Shown piece after piece: positions 6,026 to 44,690 of a stretch of 64,000 bases of DNA. The notes below the pieces were generated by a model. It did not search any database. It was not told the origin of the DNA and saw only the letters and a program-made list of their open reading frames with translations. The stretch is from Octopus sinensis (lineage: Eukaryota). The stretch lies in assembly GCF_006345805.1 (NCBI RefSeq), contig NC_042997.1:184140001-184204000 (forward strand), read 5' to 3'. Position numbers and translations under genes: made by a program. Numbering within the stretch: the first letter of the stretch is position 1; each line of letters begins with the position of its first letter.

Positions 6026-6254
6026 CAGGGTTGGCCAAAAGTCATCTGACAGTAGATCAATAGCATTTAATTCCAAGATTTATGTTTAACAACTGAATGA
6101 ATTTAATAAAAGTGTCTAAATAGGAAACATCATGAAAATTGTTCAAACTGAAATTCTCCTTGAGTGACACATTTTCCCATTCGAGTCAATACAGAATTAC
6201 AGATAGTATTTATGGAATTTTGATTTACCGTCGGGTGACTTTTGGCCATCCTTG
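6026..6254. mobile_element. Tc1/mariner-type MITE
   Basis: TIRs cagggttggccaaaagtcatctgacagta and taccgtcgggtgacttttggccatccttg, TA on both sides. Confidence 0.8.
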
Positions 6255-6294
6255 TATATAAATATACATACAAACATACAGATGTGTGCGTGTA

Positions 6295-6540
6295 TCGTCC
6301 CTATCATATCACTGACACTTTTACCTGCACTTCTAGCAACGTCATTTACTGCATCTATTCTTCCTGTCCTTCTCTGTACATCGGTCAAACGGGACACCAC
6401 TTGGCTGACCAGTTCGCGGAGCACCTCCGAGACATTAGACTCGGCAATGACACCCCAGTCTCGCGCCGTCTCCGCTCTACCGGTCATTCATTACAACACC
6501 TGTCTGTGTTCGGATTGTCTTTGCACAGAGGCCATCCGAA
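6295..6540 (+). mobile_element. Penelope-like element GIY-YIG endonuclease fragment
   Basis: ORF 6242-6667 contains FTCTSSNVIYCIYSSCPSLYIGQTGHHLADQFAEHLRDIR...TPVSR. Confidence 0.9.
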
Positions 6541-7112
6541 CTTTGTATGTTTTTGCATACAGAATTCAAAAATAATGTCAAATTATCTGTATCATCCACA
6601 GTTTCTCTGTTCCACGATATCCCTCTCAATTCCTGTTACGTGGGCTAAATTTCAGTTAAGTTGTTGAAATGTGAAGCTAACGGTTTAAGAAATACTCCTA
6701 ATTAAAATTTTTATGAATAGAATTAACCTAGTGAAATCATAAATCCAGCTATCTGTGTCAATGAGTCCCAAAAATATATGAATTGAAAAATATGTAAAAA
6801 TACAAACACACAGAAAAAGCACAGAAAAATACTAACTAACACATAGAAGCACAGTAAACTATATAATGTACTAACACACAGAAAAATTAAAACAAAATAC
6901 GCAGGTGAAATCAACATAGACAACAGCGGCACAGACAACACTGAACCACAATACAGCGTACGGTTGCCATGGTAACCAGCTGCTAATGCCAGGTTGTCTC
7001 AGATTCTTTAATTTACGAGGTAAGGTAATTGGTTGATCGTAATCAAAATTGAAAGCAATCTGAGTAAAATTAGGGGGGGGGGCATATTTTGCGAATGAGA
7101 AAGACTAGATCC

Positions 7113-7364: not shown

Positions 7365-7460
<96 letters not shown>

Positions 7461-7475
7461 TACATATATATATAT

Positions 7476-7509
<34 letters not shown>

Positions 7510-7518
7510 CATATATAT

Positions 7519-7569
<51 letters not shown>

Positions 7570-7735
7570 TACGACAGGCTTCTTTCAGTTTCCGTCTACC
7601 AAATCCACTCACAAGGCATTGGTCAGCCCAGGGCTATAGCAGAAGACACTTGCCCAAGATGCCACGCAGTGGGACTGAACCCGGAATCATGTGGTTGGTT
7701 AGCAAGCTACTTACCACACAGCCACTCCCGCGCCT
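7144..7735 (-). mobile_element. tRNA-derived SINE group B with expanded internal (TA)n
   Basis: Minus strand head ggcgcgggagtggctgtgtggtaag, gttcagtccc, cttgggcaagtgtctt; central microsatellite; (AGAGTAA)-like tail; homologous to many other copies in the window. Confidence 0.9.
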
Positions 7736-13309: not shown

Positions 13310-13900
13310 TTAGGGTAAACAATATTCATTGTGTAATTTTTTGTTGATGTCCAACTCATGATCAAACAACGTAGCGTTGGCCGGGGGAGAAGCATGTAGT
13401 AGAGAGATGAAATCGAACTACCTTGAGGGCTTGACCTTGAGATTTGCTAATCGAAATACCAAATCTTAGTTTGACTGGAAACTGAAGCGTCTTAAATTGA
13501 AATGGAACATCTGCAGATATGAAAGGAAATTTTGGAATAAAGACATTTTTTTCTTTGTGACTACCTACTATGAGTGTTGCCTGTAGGACATGTGTGCTTC
13601 ATGGAATTAACAATTAAGCGAGTTCCACTACACAGACGAGATGGGTCAAGCAACATAATGGGAGCATCCAGCTTTAGTGTCAAGTTATGCGGTGACATCC
13701 CAGTGGGTTTAAGTGTGTTCAGAAATTCAACAGTGTGTTGAACAGCTTGATCTTGATCGACTGTTGTGTGAATCGATAGAAAAGTCATTTCTGGTGTATC
13801 TGTTAACTGTTGAAGTTCATGATTGTGTTTATCAACCATTACATTAGTTGGCGCCAGTATAGCCCTTTCACATAGCCAGTTTACATCAGTGTCATTGACA
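13310..13900 (-). pseudogene. Helitron Rep/Hel Pif1-family helicase C-terminal fragment
   Basis: WLCERAILAPTN...VEFLNTLKPTGMSPHNLTLKLDAPIMLL..LCSGTRL, then after a frameshift FQFKTLQFPVKLRFGISISKSQGQAL...CFSPGQRYV. Confidence 0.9.
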
Positions 13901-14563
13901 ATCATACGTACACTTACACATACATACACTCTCACATATACTCACATACATATAAGACATACACACAGAGACATACATTTACATAACGAACGTGCAAACA
14001 CACATAGACAGACACCTACACACTCATATAGAAAACATGTCGTGGTATAAAATGTCCCTTACTATGTCGTACGTAACGAACGCGCAAACACACATACACA
14101 CACACACACACATACACTCACAGACACATATACTCTTATATACAAAATGTGTCGTGGTGGTGGTGGTATAAAATGTGTCGTGGTGGTACGTAACGAACGC
14201 GCAAACACACACATACTCACAGACACATATACACTTATGTACAAAATGTGTGGTGGTGCTATAAAATGTCCTTTACTATGTCGTACGTAACGAACGCGCA
14301 AACACACACACAGACAGATACATACACCATCATATACAAAATGTGTCGTGGTGGTGGTTGTGGTATAAAATATCGTTTACTATAATTGACTATAGAAAAC
14401 AATTTTCGAGGAAATGTTATATTGTTTTAATCGAAATGAAAAAAATTACACGTTAACACTCGCGGTGTTTAATACTATTACTTTGTAAATTTGATTTGAT
14501 TTGAAGGAGCCGTTTGAAATTGCATAGGGAACAGACAGACAGACAGACAAAGAGTTATATATA

Positions 14564-14601
<38 letters not shown>

Positions 14602-16899
14602 AGATGAAAAAATGATGTTGGATTCTTACACCCACATTAACACGCTCGTCAAACGTTTTTTTTCTCTATGGTTCAGCGTAGAATTTTCATTTATGATTTG
14701 AGATTTTAGTTGATATATTCTCACTTGATAGACTAATTGCAGTTTTGTTCAACGTAGTTGGAGCCAAATAGTCGACTCCTATTTTGCAATAAGCAGTCAG
14801 TTAAGTTTAAGTTTTCCTTCATTACCAGGAATAATGTCAGCTTTGCCGTATAAATATATTTGTTCAATCTCTATATTGTTTTAAGCTCTCATAAAATAGA
14901 GGAATATAATACAGAATATTATTGATATAAAAATAATAACAGTATGACTGAAGTTTACTTCGTAAATGTGTGGTTCGGGGTTCGAATTCTTTACATGACG
15001 TTTTGGACATAACCTAGGGTCGACCAGTGTATTGGGAATGGAATTTCGTAGACGGAAACGAAGAAATAGCGTGGAAACATATTGTGTGTGTTCGTACACA
15101 CGCACACACTCACACGATGGATTAGGTAGCCAAAATTTCGAAGTCACTATCAACAACATCCTTGTATAAGAATAAAAAATTTGTATCCTACAAAAGTATA
15201 AAGAAATCCATCAGATTATTGTCAAATTGTTTTTATTATAATTGAACAAAGAAACAAACTATATACACATATTTATGTATGTATATGTGTGTGTATATAT
15301 AAAACCAATGTTGTCTTCGAAACATATGTCGAAAGTAAAAGAATTTGAATAGTATCTGCGTTCAACTCCATTTATTTACTTATATATATATATATATATA
15401 TACACACACATATATATACATGCATGTATGTATACATACATACACACCCATATATCCATGTGTCTGTGTGCGTGTATATATATATATATATATATACATA
15501 TATGTGCATATACATATATATAAATACATACACACATAAATACAAAACGGCGTTAGTTTCGAATAACTGCGACATTTATTAAGCAGTGGTAACTCTACAT
15601 GTATTTGTTTGAAATCCTTAGCTATGGGGGTTGAGATTAATAAGAAAGCATCCCTTTCTTCTTTTAGACAAACAGAACCGTAATTGGGTAATCTTCTTAG
15701 TGATCTATTTCGACATAGTTGTCTCTCAACAGGAACATTGAATCATTATTCTTCAGCTGCCTAGAGAAGAACTTTATTTCACTATACTACCTCTTGCGTC
15801 GTAGCTAGCTGATCGAAGAAACAACATACCATTCCTTGCAGAGAAAAAAAGCGGACAGGCAAATAACAATAATCTATAATTTTCCTCATTTATATGCTGA
15901 CGTTTCTTAAAAATGAATCTTGATGTTGATCTCTTCAGGCACAGCTATCGTTTATAGTTACAATGTAAATATGGTCTCGTCTTGTATTACCGTTTGTTGA
16001 ATGACAAAGGAAGTAATATTTCTAAGCTCATCCTCTAAAAAAAAAAGAAAAAAAAAAAGACCACAGCCATATGTCATTGCCGCATATTATCTCTCCGTTG
16101 ATGTTTCCACAGGTCAAATTTCTAATAATTCATTCGAAGCAAACAAAATAAATTCAACTTCGTTTGTTTTTATGAGTTTATATGAATTCTTCCATGTTTA
16201 ACGCATCAAAGAATTTCAGTAGAAGATTGGCAGAATCGATGCTGGAGCGTCGGACAAAAGATTATTCGTGAGAAGGTTCGTCAGAAATTTGAAGACAAAA
16301 TTTCAGTGATTCAAAACTAGTCCACATACACTGTTTCCTGCTCTTCTTTCCACTGAAAATGGAGCAGAAAATCAGTAGAGATTTAGAAAAGAATTCTGGT
16401 TTAAAATACAGTGCTGGACTAACTTTGAGATATCTGTTTGATAAAATGGTTTCGAACCGTACTGAAATGCATTTTGAAAGGCAAGAGGGAATATATATTT
16501 TCCTTTGTTAGCAGACAAGAGGGAATATATATTTTCCTTTGTTAGCAGAATTTGAAACAGACTCCAATTCTATGAACCTGTTTTCAGAAATACCTACCTT
16601 CAAACAAAATGTACAAACTAAACGGATACACACACACATATGCACACACGTATATGTTTCCACGCATTAAAGAATTTCAGTAGAAGAGTGGCAGAATCGC
16701 TGCTAGAGCGTCGGACAAATGACTAGTAAAGTACTTAGGGCGGGTACTATTTATACTCCTATAATGCACCCTAGACGGAAAAACAGAATTTAAGGACCGA
16801 ATCTCATATATGTTACGTCGTTATGTACTACATAGAATTCTCTTCCAATGCTGGTGAAATAACGTTCCTATTTGTGCGTTTATTGCTGTAAACCTAATA

Positions 16900-17495: not shown

Positions 17496-17541
<46 letters not shown>

Positions 17542-17708
17542 TACGACGGGCTTCTTTCAGTTTCCGTCTACCAAATCCACTCACAAGGCTTTGGTCGGCC
17601 CGAGGCTATAGCAGAAGACACTTGCCCAAGATGCCACGCAGTGGGACTGAACCCGGAACCATGTGTTTGGTAGACAAGCTACTTACCACACAGCCACTCC
17701 TGCGCCTA
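17345..17708 (-). mobile_element. SINE group B, tail truncated
   Basis: Homologous to 11421-11871 in reverse orientation. Confidence 0.85.
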
Positions 17709-17829
17709 TACGTATATGTATTAATACGTATATGTATTAATACAGACATTTACCCTTTCACATTTTTACTCTTTTACCTGTTTCACTCTGCAAGCTGGGG
17801 TCATGCTGCAACGCTTTTACTCATCTCTA

Positions 17830-30883: not shown

Positions 30884-31105
30884 TACTCTTTTACTCTTTT
30901 ACTCTTTTACTTGTTTCAGTCATTTGACTGCGGCCATGCTGGAGCACCGCCTTTAGTCGAGCAACTCGACCCCGGGACTTATTCTTTTTGTAAGCCCAGT
31001 ACTTATTCTATCGATCTCTTTTTGCCGAACCGCTAAGTGACGGGGACATAAACACACCAGCATCGGTTGTCAAGCAATGCTAGGGAGACAAACACAGACA
31101 CACAA

Positions 31106-31138
<33 letters not shown>

Positions 31139-31310
31139 CATATATACGACAGGCTTCTTTCAGTTTCCGTCTACCAAATTCACTCACAAGGCATTGGTCG
31201 GCCCGGGGCTATAGCAGAAGACACTTGCCCAAGATGCCACGCAGTGGGACTGAACCCGGAACCATGTGGTTTGTTAGCAAGCTACTTACCACACAGCCAC
31301 TCCTGCGCCT
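30884..31310 (-). mobile_element. SINE group B, full length, followed by ~110 bp (TA)n
   Basis: Homology to other group B copies. Confidence 0.9.
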
Positions 31311-31430
<120 letters not shown>

Positions 31431-39877: not shown

Positions 39878-39929
39878 TGAATCTCTTTTCCTCAGGGAGG
39901 AAAGAAGACATTAGGAGTAGTCAGTTTGA

Positions 39930-40333
39930 TACTCTTACTCTTTTACTCTTTTACTTGCTTCAGTCATTTGACTGTAGCCATGCTGGAGCACCGCCTTTAG
40001 TCGACTTATTCTTTGTAAGCCTAGTACTTATTCTATCGGTCTCTTTTGCCGAACCGCTACGGGGACGCAAACACACGAGCATCGGTTGTCAAGCGATGTT
40101 GGGGAGACAAACACGGACACACAACCCCCACCCACATATATGTATATATGCATACATACGACGGGATTCTTTCAGTTTCCGTCTACCAAATCCACTCGCA
40201 AGGCTTTGGTTGGCCTGAGGCTATAGTAGAAGACACTTGCCCAAGGTGCCACGCAGTGGGACTGAATCCGGAACCATGTGGTTCGTAAGCAAGCTACTTA
40301 CCACACATCCACTTCTACGCCTGATATAGAGTA

Positions 40334-41377: not shown

Positions 41378-42153
41378 GTGCGAGTATGTATATGTGTACA
41401 TGTGTATGGTTGCATATATATGTATACATATAGGTGTGTGTATGGGGGGGGGGGTTGCATGTATATGTTTCACGCGAGTGTGAGTGAGAATATGCATATA
41501 TAGCATATGCGTATTATAGACGTGTATAAGAATATAATTGTGAGCGTATGGGTATGTGCACGTGTGTGTGCGGATATGTACATGTGTATGGTTGCATATA
41601 TGTGTGCACATATAGGCGTGTGTGTAGGTGTGCATGTATGTGTTTCACGCGAGTGTGAGTGAGCATATGCATATAAGCACATGTACGTGGGTGTGTGTGC
41701 ACGCATGTGTATGTATGTGCTTGCGCGCATACGCGAATTCTATGAAGGTCTTTTACTTTCTCCCCTTCGGGTTTTTTTCCCCTCTTTATTTAACGGTCAT
41801 TCTAATCGCTTTTTTGTTTGTCTTAATAAAATTATTTTTATAATTATAGAATATTTTGTATAATTTACCTAAAATAGTTGGTAAAATTATTAGTATTAAT
41901 AATCTTACCCTATATTATTATTATTAAAATATATATATATTATATTATATATATATATATATATATAAGTAGTTAAAGGAATTATCCTAGTATGGATAAT
42001 TCGGTTAACCGATACCCGGGTAGCAAATTTACGTCAGAAATCACGGTTGAAGCTACATGCCAAGGGCAGAAATCACGTGCTTTCGTGTGGAAATTTGTGT
42101 GTTATTTTACTATAAATAAATGAAAGAATGGAGTCGAACGACGATTTAACAAA

Positions 42154-42253
42154 ATTCCTTTATTCTCGACATATGTTTCGAAGACTGCGTATTCTCAATT
42201 CCGAAGGAATAAAGGGTGCATTATGCCGCCTTCTCATCAGGAAAACAAGGAAC
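42154..42253 (-). ncRNA. Type-I hammerhead ribozyme (PLE-associated type)
   Basis: Minus strand: stem I 5' guuccuuguuuuc, CUGAUGA (42240-42234), stem II gaaggcggc/gcagucuuc, GAAAC-auau-GUC, stem I 3' gagaauaaaggaau; predicted cleavage between 42168 and 42167. Confidence 0.75.
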
Positions 42254-42386
42254 TTATGTCAGCATCATGATGAACAAAAGCTTTTAGATGACTGCCCACA
42301 CGGAGTCCATTATCACTATGCAGTCTGCGAAACATATGTCGAGAATAAAGGAATTTTGTTAAATCGTCGTTCGACTCCATTCTTTC

Positions 42387-42421
<35 letters not shown>

Positions 42422-43586: not shown

Positions 43587-44690
43587 ATTTATGATTTATG
43601 GTTAAGCCAAGTGCCTCACAAGCCATTGCATTCGTAAGATTTTGCATGTCCTCCTCAGTATGAGTGATAATATCACAATCATCTGCATAGAGGAGGTCTC
43701 TAGTAAGAGTTGAAGACGTCCCTGACTTAGCTGACAGTCTTCTGATGTTAAAGATTTTTCCTGCTGTGCGATATCTAATATATCTGCCTTCATAGGAGCC
43801 TTTGAAAGCCAATTGAAAAACTATGGTAAATAGAGGGTGAAGAGAGTGGGTACTAGTATGTCACCTTGTTTTACCCCATTGATGACAGAGTTAAGCTTCG
43901 AGAGCTTTCCACCGCTGCTGGTCCTTACTCCCATGCCATCATGAAACTGTTTCAGAATAGTGAGAAACTTTACTGGGCATCCAGGTCTCCTCAAGATCTT
44001 CCACAAGACAGTTCGATTGACAGAGCCAAAAGCGTTAGTAAGATCAATGAATACCTGATAAAGTCCTGTTTGCTGTCCCACACACTTTTCTTGTAACTGC
44101 CGTGCAGAGAAGGTCATGTCAACAGAACCCCTACCATTTCTGAATCCACTCTGTGATTCAGGAAAAATCTCATTAGCCTCATATATCTGCAGCCGGTTCA
44201 ACATTATTCGTGATAAAACTTTGCCGACTGTAGCAAGCAGGCAAATACTACGAAAGTTACTGCATTCATCCTTTTGTCCCTTACTCTTGAACGACAACTC
44301 CCATGACTGCATCCTTCCAATCTTTTAGCATAACTTCCCTTTTCCGTATCTTCTGTATTAATGCTGTCAGCATTTCTAGCATGTCGTACCCACTAAATTT
44401 AAATAGTTCTACATGCAGACTATCAACTCCCGGTGCTTTGCCATTGTCCAGCTTTGATACTGCTTTTACTGTTTCCTCTGCTGAAGGGGTGTCATCTAAG
44501 CACTCAATGGGTGCATTCTGTGGAATCATATCAATACTTTTTTCTATCAACAATTGCTGGACCAGCAATTGTTGATAGAAATGAAATGTTCCTCCCATCG
44601 TTTTAAGATGTCTTTGGGCTCCCTCAATAAAACACCATTCCTATTCTTCACATGAGCCAAAGTAGGATATGATGCCTCATACACCTCACG
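43587..44690 (-). mobile_element. RTE-clade LINE reverse transcriptase fragment
   Basis: GKAPGVDSLHVELFK, CSNFRSICLLATVGKVLSRIMLNRL, ESQSGFRNGRG, RQLQEKC, FIDLTNAF, GVKQGDILVPTLF, LLYADD; several frameshifts. Confidence 0.95.

What the first reader, a model, noticed from the sequence alone, without database searches (positions are those of the whole stretch)
42116..42392. Small inverted-repeat element with an apparently intact hammerhead ribozyme
Seen: a ~277-bp non-coding unit with ~73-bp inverted arms (42116-42188 and 42320-42392, one mismatch by eye), ending in (TA)n. The minus strand has every hammerhead core nucleotide. Stem I is ~13 bp, stem II ~9 bp with a long loop, and stem III is minimal (GAAAC-AUAU-GUC) with the palindrome ACAUAUGU. 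The plus-strand arm repeats only the GAAAC..GUC half. Established: Penelope-like elements carry type-I hammerheads with palindromic stem III that cleave as dimers, and often insert with inverted pseudo-LTRs. Inference: this is a non-autonomous retrozyme-like family. On the minus-strand transcript the opposite arm is antisense to the ribozyme's 3' half, so a read-through RNA could fold into an inactive hairpin while a shorter RNA cleaves.
Basis: partly seen in the sequence, partly recalled or inferred. Interest (0 to 1): 0.75.

Follow-up and report, generated by a model that had tools for sequence, protein, structure and literature searches.

The report
Two-armed Penelope retroelement end with hammerhead
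This mirror-image repeat with a predicted self-cutting hammerhead RNA is the cut-short end of an abundant protein-coding Penelope-type jumping gene, a known insertion shape; its two arms almost always stop at two different fixed sites about 150 bases apart, which likely records one RNA being copied twice.

Summary
The arms (72/73 identical) and the type I hammerhead core are real, but the unit is 426 bp (41966-42391), not 277: the minus-strand copy runs on through a 150-nt tail. It is the 3' end (pLTR) of an autonomous, Hydra-related Penelope-like element (RT plus C-terminal GIY-YIG) with many copies in (TA)n tracts. It is not a retrozyme with fixed arms: arm length varies per locus, and short copies form no clade of their own. 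Of 98 head-to-head pairs, 94 join one long (tailed) and one short terminus; none is short+short. Partner arms share 81 of 202 rare variants (5 expected). Likely mechanism: priming at two fixed internal sites of one RNA. Departures from published elements: a 150-nt tail (30-40 published), a long two-part stem II, no CxCX5C linker despite (TA)n targeting, and a 5' stop hotspot at an initiator-like TCATT. Read-through hairpins of the family look A-to-I edited (weak evidence), which fits a by-product better than a switch. Cleavage is untested; this copy carries a private stem II mutation. The scan has reported this kind before on other octopus DNA. Modest interest.

The parts
41927..41965 (.). Left (TA)n target tract (imperfect)
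   Evidence: 132 of 139 long ends and 117 of 126 short ends of the family have TATATA at the junction
41966..42310 (-). Long arm: 5'-truncated pLTR copy ending at the long (tailed) terminus L
   Evidence: 95.5% identity over 357 nt to the 3' end of ORF-bearing copy L081; class L, 5' end at -194
41966..42116 (-). Tail of about 150 nt between short site S and long site L; in tandem copies it runs on into the 5' UTR and start codon of the next unit
41977..42000 (-). 9-bp hairpin just before the long terminus, kept in both subfamilies (13-nt loop insertion in the older one, no covariation)
   Evidence: z -3.6 in this copy, z 0.2 in the older-subfamily copy folded
42117..42128 (-). Short priming site S, passed through by the long arm
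   Evidence: 3' ends of 269 arms are bimodal, at S and about 150 nt beyond
42152..42255 (-). Predicted type I hammerhead: stem I 42255-42241 with 42167-42152; core 42240-42234; stem II 42233-42222 with 42191-42180; inner hairpin; GAA 42179-42177; palindrome 42176-42169; predicted cut between 42168 and 42167
   Evidence: private G at 42189 (+) breaks one stem II pair
42284..42288 (-). AGTCA, DPE-like motif (one base off the canonical spacing, recalled); block identical in both subfamilies (8 of 8)
   Evidence: promoter role inferred
42308..42310 (.). Head-to-head junction of the two arms through a 3-nt CAT/ATG overlap
42308..42320 (+). First 13 nt of the short arm: the hotspot 5' end of the element (-204 to -192), initiator-like
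42317..42320 (+). TATG microhomology across which the short arm lacks 121 nt (-195 to -74), including the hammerhead's 5' half
   Evidence: read; template jump or later deletion is inferred
42308..42391 (+). Short arm: inverted, internally deleted pLTR copy ending at the short terminus S; carries only stem II 3' strand, GAAAC-palindrome-GUC and stem I 3' strand
42392..42420 (.). Right (TA)n target tract; no target-site duplication can be told inside TA repeats

Best explanation
The unit is one 5'-truncated, two-armed insertion of the hammerhead-bearing end (pLTR) of an autonomous Hydra-related Penelope-like retroelement in a (TA)n tract, likely made when the element's RT/GIY-YIG protein primed twice on one RNA, at two fixed internal sites about 150 nt apart. 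Shown: parent ORF, head-to-tail templates, two termini, strict long+short pairing, common source of both arms, (TA)n targets, a 5' stop hotspot. Inferred: the endonuclease nicks both strands of (TA)n; one nick primes at L (about 50 nt before the next unit's ATG), the other at S; each cDNA stops at random or at the hotspot (likely an RNA 5' end from an internal pLTR promoter); overlap of the arms would need the L cDNA to re-copy RNA already copied from S (possible without RNase H, recalled); the two 5' ends are joined through a few bases of microhomology. The hammerhead is inherited from the parent, where it would cut poorly as a monomer and better as a dimer or with protein help. The long hairpin of a read-through RNA is a by-product that would silence the ribozyme and attract A-to-I editing.
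For: Parent: the window sequence is 95.5% identical to the 3' end of L081, whose 593-aa frame has YRDD RT and C-terminal GIY-YIG motifs; the tail joins the 5' UTR and ORF start directly in 22 of 30 ORF-start loci by my reading. Termini: 269 arms end at S (-4 to +10: 126) or L (+147 to +165: 139), 4 elsewhere; 98 head-to-head pairs are 94 L+S, 0 S+S, 1 L+L (an internal tandem tail, L093) and 3 near variants. Tail-selected loci with a partner: 34 of 35 partners S, 0 L; S-selected: 19 of 19 partners L (two rows are one pair). Partner arms share 81 of 202 rare variants against 5.4 expected, and 61 of 65 pairs are closer than the average other copy. S arm reaches further 5' in 54 of 94 pairs, L in 31, 9 ties; 17 do not overlap. 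Hotspot: 30 of 64 arms at risk stop in -208 to -183 (1.9 per 100 nt against 0.06-0.72 in the other bins up to -290) in loci 101-190, in both subfamilies. Hammerhead: CTGATGA in 155 and GAAACATATGTC in 128 of 175 copies; 93.7% of cells paired, 4 of 30 pairs with double changes, slid controls 33-51%; core blocks identical between subfamilies while upstream UTR is 62%. Published: inverted truncated copy plus one-sided tail (PMC8557442), two RT start sites explaining the tail and a protein-assisted HHR (PMC11167929).
Against: Shared variants show a common source locus, not a single RNA molecule; gene conversion between arms could add to them. No excess of L arms stopping at S was seen, which simple twin priming might give (4 of 30 and 2 of 30 near S). 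The promoter reading of the hotspot is weakened by full-length copies: of 10 upstream pLTRs reaching -183 only 2 stop in the hotspot and 8 run past it. No clear pile-up of 5' ends at the predicted cut (-50): 7 in the -50 to -46 bin against 8 at -60 and 7 at -80, so the genome gives no sign of cleavage. Covariation rests on two subfamilies (29 of 500 shuffles reach 4 double-change pairs). Predicted active-fold probability is low: 1e-4 for this copy, 2e-2 for a typical young copy, 4e-4 for an older one. Only the 40 best DNA candidates per search were scored, so samples lean to well-kept copies. Pfam found no RT or GIY-YIG family in 4 of 4 proteins; domain calls rest on motifs and alignment.
Confidence: 0.72

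Rival explanations
1. Same element and same two termini, but each arm is copied from its own RNA in an asymmetric RNA/protein dimer (the hammerhead palindrome could pair two transcripts of one source locus), or the tail is removed on one side when the endonuclease resolves the intermediate.
For: Two copies co-fold through the 8-bp palindrome; the recurrent ACAUGUGU variant still self-pairs (-6.0 against -7.0 kcal/mol); overlapping arms (77 of 94 pairs, some kilobases long) need no re-copying; PAc is predicted to be a dimer (PMC11167929); Craig et al. ascribe the tail to EN-mediated resolution (PMC8557442).
Against: Needs a built-in asymmetry to give 94 L+S and no S+S or true L+L; in vitro PAc showed no strand difference in RT start sites (PMC11167929); shared rare variants leave little room for mixed-source dimers.
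Confidence: 0.2
2. One reading: a dedicated non-autonomous retrozyme with fixed inverted arms, the second arm acting as an antisense switch on the ribozyme.
For: No ORF in this copy; hairpin predicted; many copies are short because of the 5' hotspot; family RNA looks edited in the arm region.
Against: Arm extents differ at every locus; identical sequence ends RT/EN ORFs; hotspot copies are not closer to each other than to long copies (p 0.39-0.88 in 4 of 4 tests); no short head-to-tail HHR arrays among 220 loci except local duplications such as L162/L163.
Confidence: 0.04
3. Fold-back or self-priming: one cDNA snaps back and copies itself, giving the inverted arm (self-priming model of Arkhipova et al. 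2013).
For: Junctions show short microhomologies and some lie at the palindrome; arms share variants; proposed in PMC3846280.
Against: The copied arm should lie within the first: S is longer in 54 of 94 pairs, L always has a tail that S lacks, and 17 pairs do not overlap at all.
Confidence: 0.03
4. A MITE or other DNA transposon with terminal inverted repeats.
For: Short, ORF-less, inverted ends, TA context.
Against: Ends are asymmetric by 150 nt, 5' ends are truncated at random, the parent encodes RT and GIY-YIG.
Confidence: 0.01

Closest known systems
Hydra clade of C-terminal EN+ Penelope-like elements, incl. Hydra-1_Obim (Craig et al. 2021, PMC8557442; seen: passages, section 11, supplement part 2 and search hits in the supplement)
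   Same: Single ORF with DKT motif, RT, C-terminal GIY-YIG without CCHH, CxxC and CxH motifs, (TA)n targeting, type I HHR with palindromic stem III near the 3' end, inverted truncated copy, tail on one side.
   Different: RWK reads RWL; CxCX5C linker absent and replaced by an Asn-rich stretch; unit about 3.1 kb; stem II spans 54 nt between the core blocks, against short stems and loops in the Hydra rows of supplement File S2; tail 150 nt against 30-40; HHR sequence differs from the listed Hydra-1_oBim HHR, so it is another family (compared by eye).
Poseidon of Anolis carolinensis (PAc; Frangieh et al. 2024, PMC11167929; seen: main text parts 1-2 of 4)
   Same: Two internal RT start sites downstream of the HHR that delimit the tail; AT-rich targets; head-to-tail template; HHR needing help to cut.
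   Different: There the sites lie 30-40 nt apart inside the ORF with no strand bias seen in vitro; here they are 150 nt apart in non-coding sequence and the two ends of one insertion use different sites in 94 of 98 pairs.
PLE hammerheads (Cervera and de la Pena 2014, PMC4209133; seen: parts 1-2 of 4)
   Same: Type I, palindromic unstable helix III, long helix II, opposite-strand pairs 100-700 bp apart, dimer model, low activity.
   Different: Helix II longer (11-12 bp plus inner hairpin) and helix I longer (about 15 bp).
Metazoan non-LTR retrozymes (PMC7229834, passages; bioRxiv 10.64898/2026.07.22.740005, part 1 of 5)
   Same: Type I HHR, ORF-less 300-400 nt units, PLE relationship.
   Different: Retrozymes are head-to-tail arrays of short HHR repeats giving circular RNA; this unit is a head-to-head stub of a coding element.
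Penelope of Drosophila virilis and Adineta vaga (PMC2377424, PMC3846280; passages)
   Same: Internal promoter with Inr/DPE-type motifs in the pLTR; inverted pLTR with optional tail; Asn-rich insertions in the ORF (A. vaga).
   Different: Different clade; here the promoter is only inferred from a truncation hotspot.

Membership tests
EN+ Penelope-like elements | Single ORF with RT and GIY-YIG endonuclease | tested here: met
   ORF frames of 535-670 aa in L081, L087, L088, L091, L099, L100 with RT and GIY-YIG motifs, aligned to 7 outside homologs at 29-32%; no Pfam hit; no intact full-length copy was seen
EN+ Penelope-like elements | Partial tandem structure forming pLTRs | tested here: met
   Tail contiguous with 5' UTR and ORF start in 22 of 30 loci; L093
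EN+ Penelope-like elements | 5' truncation with inverted copy at the 5' end, tail at one end | tested here: met
   98 head-to-head pairs, 94 long+short; tail 150 nt rather than 30-40
EN+ Penelope-like elements | Type I hammerhead in the pLTR | tested here: met
   (motif and structure only)
Hydra clade | C-terminal EN without CCHH; CxxC and CxH around the conserved E and N | tested here: met
   3 of 3 family ORFs covering the EN
Hydra clade | DKT in place of DKG | tested here: met
   L087, L097
Hydra clade | N-terminal RWK motif | tested here: inconclusive
   Same position reads IRWL in most ORF starts; RWK in 6 of 7 outside homologs
Hydra clade | CxCX5C linker before the EN | tested here: not met
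   Absent in 4 of 4 family ORFs, present in 7 of 7 outside homologs; so filed as Hydra-related variant, not as a plain member
Hydra clade | Insertion into (TA)n | tested here: met
   249 of 265 classified ends
Hydra clade | RT phylogeny within Hydra | not tested
   No named reference proteins were available as tool sequences; resemblance to the supplement's Hydra proteins was judged by eye
Type I hammerhead ribozyme | Core CUGANGA, GAA, UH with stems I-III | tested here: met
   Rfam score below gathering
Type I hammerhead ribozyme | Self-cleavage | not testable with these tools
   No assay; no 5'-end pile-up at the cut in genomic copies
Non-LTR retrozymes | Head-to-tail arrays of short HHR-bearing monomers | tested here: not met
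   220 loci: head-to-head stubs and coding tandems; only local duplications
Non-LTR retrozymes | Non-autonomous lineage without ORF | tested here: not met
   Same sequence ends RT/EN ORFs; short copies not monophyletic
Non-LTR retrozymes | Circular monomer RNA | not testable with these tools
   Only contigs were available

The most novel reading that the evidence does not exclude
This family records a fixed two-site twin-priming mechanism: one RT dimer primes at two defined sites 150 nt apart on a single RNA and copies the same stretch twice, which would explain inverted pLTRs and one-sided tails in all Penelope-like elements; an internal pLTR start site yields a 355-nt non-coding RNA that is the commonest template, and (TA)n targeting works without the linker zinc finger thought to mediate it.
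Probability: 0.4. Interest if true: 0.6.

Novelty: new variant of a known kind. Interest (0 to 1): 0.33.

Why it matters
The layout is known, so the locus itself is ordinary. The value lies in the counts. How Penelope-like elements make inverted ends and one-sided tails is stated as open in PMC8557442 and PMC11167929; a family with a 150-nt tail makes the two start sites easy to tell apart, and the strict long+short pairing with same-source arms gives a sharp prediction for the existing in vitro assay. (TA)n targeting without the CxCX5C linker questions the proposed role of that finger. Many such stubs would also be a source of double-stranded RNA for A-to-I editing in this animal (likely an octopus).

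Tried and rejected
Rfam over 5 kb missed the hammerhead; only the narrow scan found it. Pfam and PDB sequence searches named no domain. Bacterial promoter scan: 5 sites against 3.5 expected, irrelevant. Sequencing runs: no RNA holder on record; all 8 runs laid were contigs, so no RNA starts, cut ends or circles could be seen. A genome-wide structure search for more distant hammerheads was not available, so covariation rests on two subfamilies. Consensus folding of 45 tails gave no convincing structure (-0.21 kcal/mol, 1 of 11 pairs with a double change); the tail-hairpin idea from earlier scan notes is neither confirmed nor excluded here. A splice donor at the tail start was rejected: the GT is absent in the older subfamily. 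5' ends at the predicted cut: no clear excess. Separate non-autonomous lineage: not supported. Full-length copies starting at the initiator-like site: 2 of 10, not supportive. Literature searches for twin priming in Penelope elements: (Penelope, twin priming, tail, inverted) gave one unrelated review listing; some searches gave the papers cited; I did not find the strict pairing or a 150-nt tail in what I read, but the library lacks most subscription papers, I read only parts of each paper and 1 of 59 parts of the Craig supplement plus search hits; supplements of the bioRxiv preprint were not seen.

Full report
Observation. The inverted arms are real: 42116-42188 and 42320-42392 differ at one place, 42181. 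The minus strand carries a complete type I hammerhead core with the palindrome ACAUAUGU as stem III and a predicted cut between 42168 and 42167. Rfam Hammerhead_1 matches at 26 bits, E 1e-4, under its gathering score, and only in a narrow scan. The read-through RNA folds into one long hairpin.

Family and parent. The genome is a 2.72-Gb animal assembly, likely an octopus (inference from repeat content, recall and earlier scan notes). First-look candidates were 2218 for the hammerhead region, 1934 and 1687 for the tails of a younger and an older subfamily, and 199 for the ORF start; these are not copy numbers and only 40 were scored each time. Longer copies extend upstream through a 3' UTR into an ORF with RT and C-terminal GIY-YIG motifs. 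The window copy is 95.5% identical to the end of such a copy. In 22 of 30 ORF-start loci, by my reading, the tail is directly followed by about 50 nt of UTR and the start codon, so templates are head-to-tail units of about 3.1 kb. The protein has DKT, no CCHH, CxxC and CxH, like the Hydra clade (PMC8557442, section 11), but RWK reads RWL and the CxCX5C linker, present in 7 of 7 outside homologs, is missing in 4 of 4 family ORFs, where an Asn-rich stretch stands instead. Its hammerhead differs from that listed for Hydra-1_oBim. I therefore file it as a Hydra-related variant. Pfam and PDB named nothing.

Two termini. Among 269 distinct arms from 190 loci, 3' ends fall at a short site S (126) or a long site L about 150 nt further (139); 4 lie elsewhere. 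Of 98 head-to-head pairs within 6 kb, 94 are L+S, none S+S, one L+L is an internal tandem tail (L093, whose outer ends are L and S) and three are near variants. Selection cannot make this: tail-selected loci had S partners in 34 of 35 cases and no L partner, S-selected loci had L partners in 19 of 19 rows (18 distinct pairs); 25 of 60 and 11 of 30 had no partner of 25 nt or more within the fetched flank, and some of those have tiny S arms. TATATA lies at 249 of 265 ends. [quoted passage not shown]

Source of the arms. In 65 pairs with at least 50 nt of overlap, partner identity averaged 97.4% against 94.4% to other copies; 81 of 202 rare variants were shared, 5.4 expected (pairs of different reference subfamily, short overlap or under 10 comparators were dropped). 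S reaches further 5' than L in 54 of 94 pairs, L in 31, with 9 ties at the reference edge, and 17 do not overlap. Neither arm is a copy of the other, which rejects fold-back. One RNA has exactly one S and one L, so priming at both explains the pairing most simply (inference); an asymmetric two-RNA complex or one-sided endonuclease trimming remains possible.

5' stop hotspot. In loci chosen by tail or short end, 30 of 64 arms that reach -183 stop before -208, 1.9 per 100 nt against 0.06-0.72 in the other bins up to -290, with a sharp edge at the motif TCATT, in both subfamilies. That motif block (16 of 19) and a downstream AGTCA block (8 of 8) are kept between subfamilies while neighbours are 56-67% alike. 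An internal promoter is known for D. virilis Penelope (PMC2377424), so an RNA start is the likely cause. Against it, 8 of 10 upstream pLTRs of full-length copies run past the site, and the DPE-like spacing is one base off (recalled consensus). Hotspot copies form no clade, so they are not a separate non-autonomous family.

This copy, base by base. The long arm covers -194 to L on the minus strand. The short arm starts with the 13 hotspot bases at 42308-42320, skips 121 nt across a shared TATG, and continues to S at 42391; the arms overlap by CAT/ATG at 42308-42310. The skip removed the 5' half of the second hammerhead, which is why the plus arm shows only GAAAC..GUC.

Ribozyme. CTGATGA is intact in 155 and GAAACATATGTC in 128 of 175 copies covering the region. 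On 48 chosen copies (of those 175) 93.7% of cells pair, 4 of 30 pairs show double changes, and slid controls give 33-51%; this rests on two subfamilies and is moderate support. Stem II is 11-12 bp with a kept 1x1 mismatch and an inner hairpin. Two copies co-fold through the palindrome, as proposed for PLE hammerheads, which cut weakly (PMC4209133). This copy has a private G at 42189 that breaks a stem II pair; predicted active-like fraction 1e-4 against 2e-2 for a typical young copy. Genomic 5' ends do not pile up at the cut. Cleavage is untested.

Hairpin and editing. Of 6 runs guessed to be RNA, 4 (X4, X5, X8, X14; 3 studies) show A>G at arm positions 42148, 42152-42154 or 42162 and clustered changes in loose ends; X1 and X11 list none at these places; the two DNA-like runs show 0-33 per about 100,000. 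Genomic copies carry the change in 0-2 of about 160 and 0-2 of about 79 arms. This hints at A-to-I editing of double-stranded family RNA, but the data are contigs of guessed RNA from other individuals and cannot be tied to this locus.

Verdict. A real feature of a known kind: the truncated, two-armed end of a Penelope-like element. The retrozyme and antisense-switch readings are not supported. What is added is a long tail, a near-absolute long+short rule with same-source arms, a 5' hotspot and (TA)n targeting without the linker finger. My literature searches did not show these in the parts read; the scan's own notes report similar octopus elements, one with two fixed sites. New variant of a known kind; interest 0.33.

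Noticed in passing
window 15313-15388 (+): A more diverged stub of the same superfamily (79% identity), 3' half of the hammerhead to the short terminus, followed by (TA)n.
   Followed up: partly
window 6239-6667 (+): Frame with a GIY-YIG-like stretch preceded by cysteines, probably a fragment of another Penelope-like clade (Neptune-like, motif recalled); no Pfam hit.
   Followed up: partly
window 43821-44324 (-): 167-aa frame resembling a LINE reverse transcriptase fragment (motifs recalled).
   Followed up: no
window 13561-13941 (-): 126-aa frame resembling a Helitron/PIF1 helicase fragment (motifs recalled).
   Followed up: no
window 52964-53857 (+): 297-aa open frame with a hydrophobic segment and a Ser/Thr-rich end, probably a host gene exon.
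   Followed up: no
window about 55600-57800: Over 2 kb of degenerate TA-type microsatellite, GC 12.5% in 56001-58000.
   Followed up: no
window about 7400-7700, 17500-17750, 31100-31350, 39900-40200, 55630-55750: Repeated SINE-like element seen as recurring translated motifs; the same repeat flanks many family loci.
   Followed up: no
L162/L163 (G000:C24:9236118-9236579) and L166: Whole long+short unit duplicated head-to-tail at 400 bp, and a short stub duplicated at 102 bp, through TA tracts; local duplication or assembly effect.
   Followed up: partly
family ORF, e.g. L081 3347-5125 (-): Two Asn-rich insertions, in the thumb region and before the endonuclease, like those described for Adineta Penelope elements (PMC3846280).
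   Followed up: partly
window 42221-42206 (-): Just behind the 5' strand of stem II lies a near copy of its 3' partner, giving a competing hairpin that wins in this copy's predicted fold; part of it is also complementary to the 3' strand of stem I.
   Followed up: partly
L205, L213, L216-L220: Further subfamilies at about 80% identity with the same hammerhead motif and tail-UTR-ORF order.
   Followed up: no
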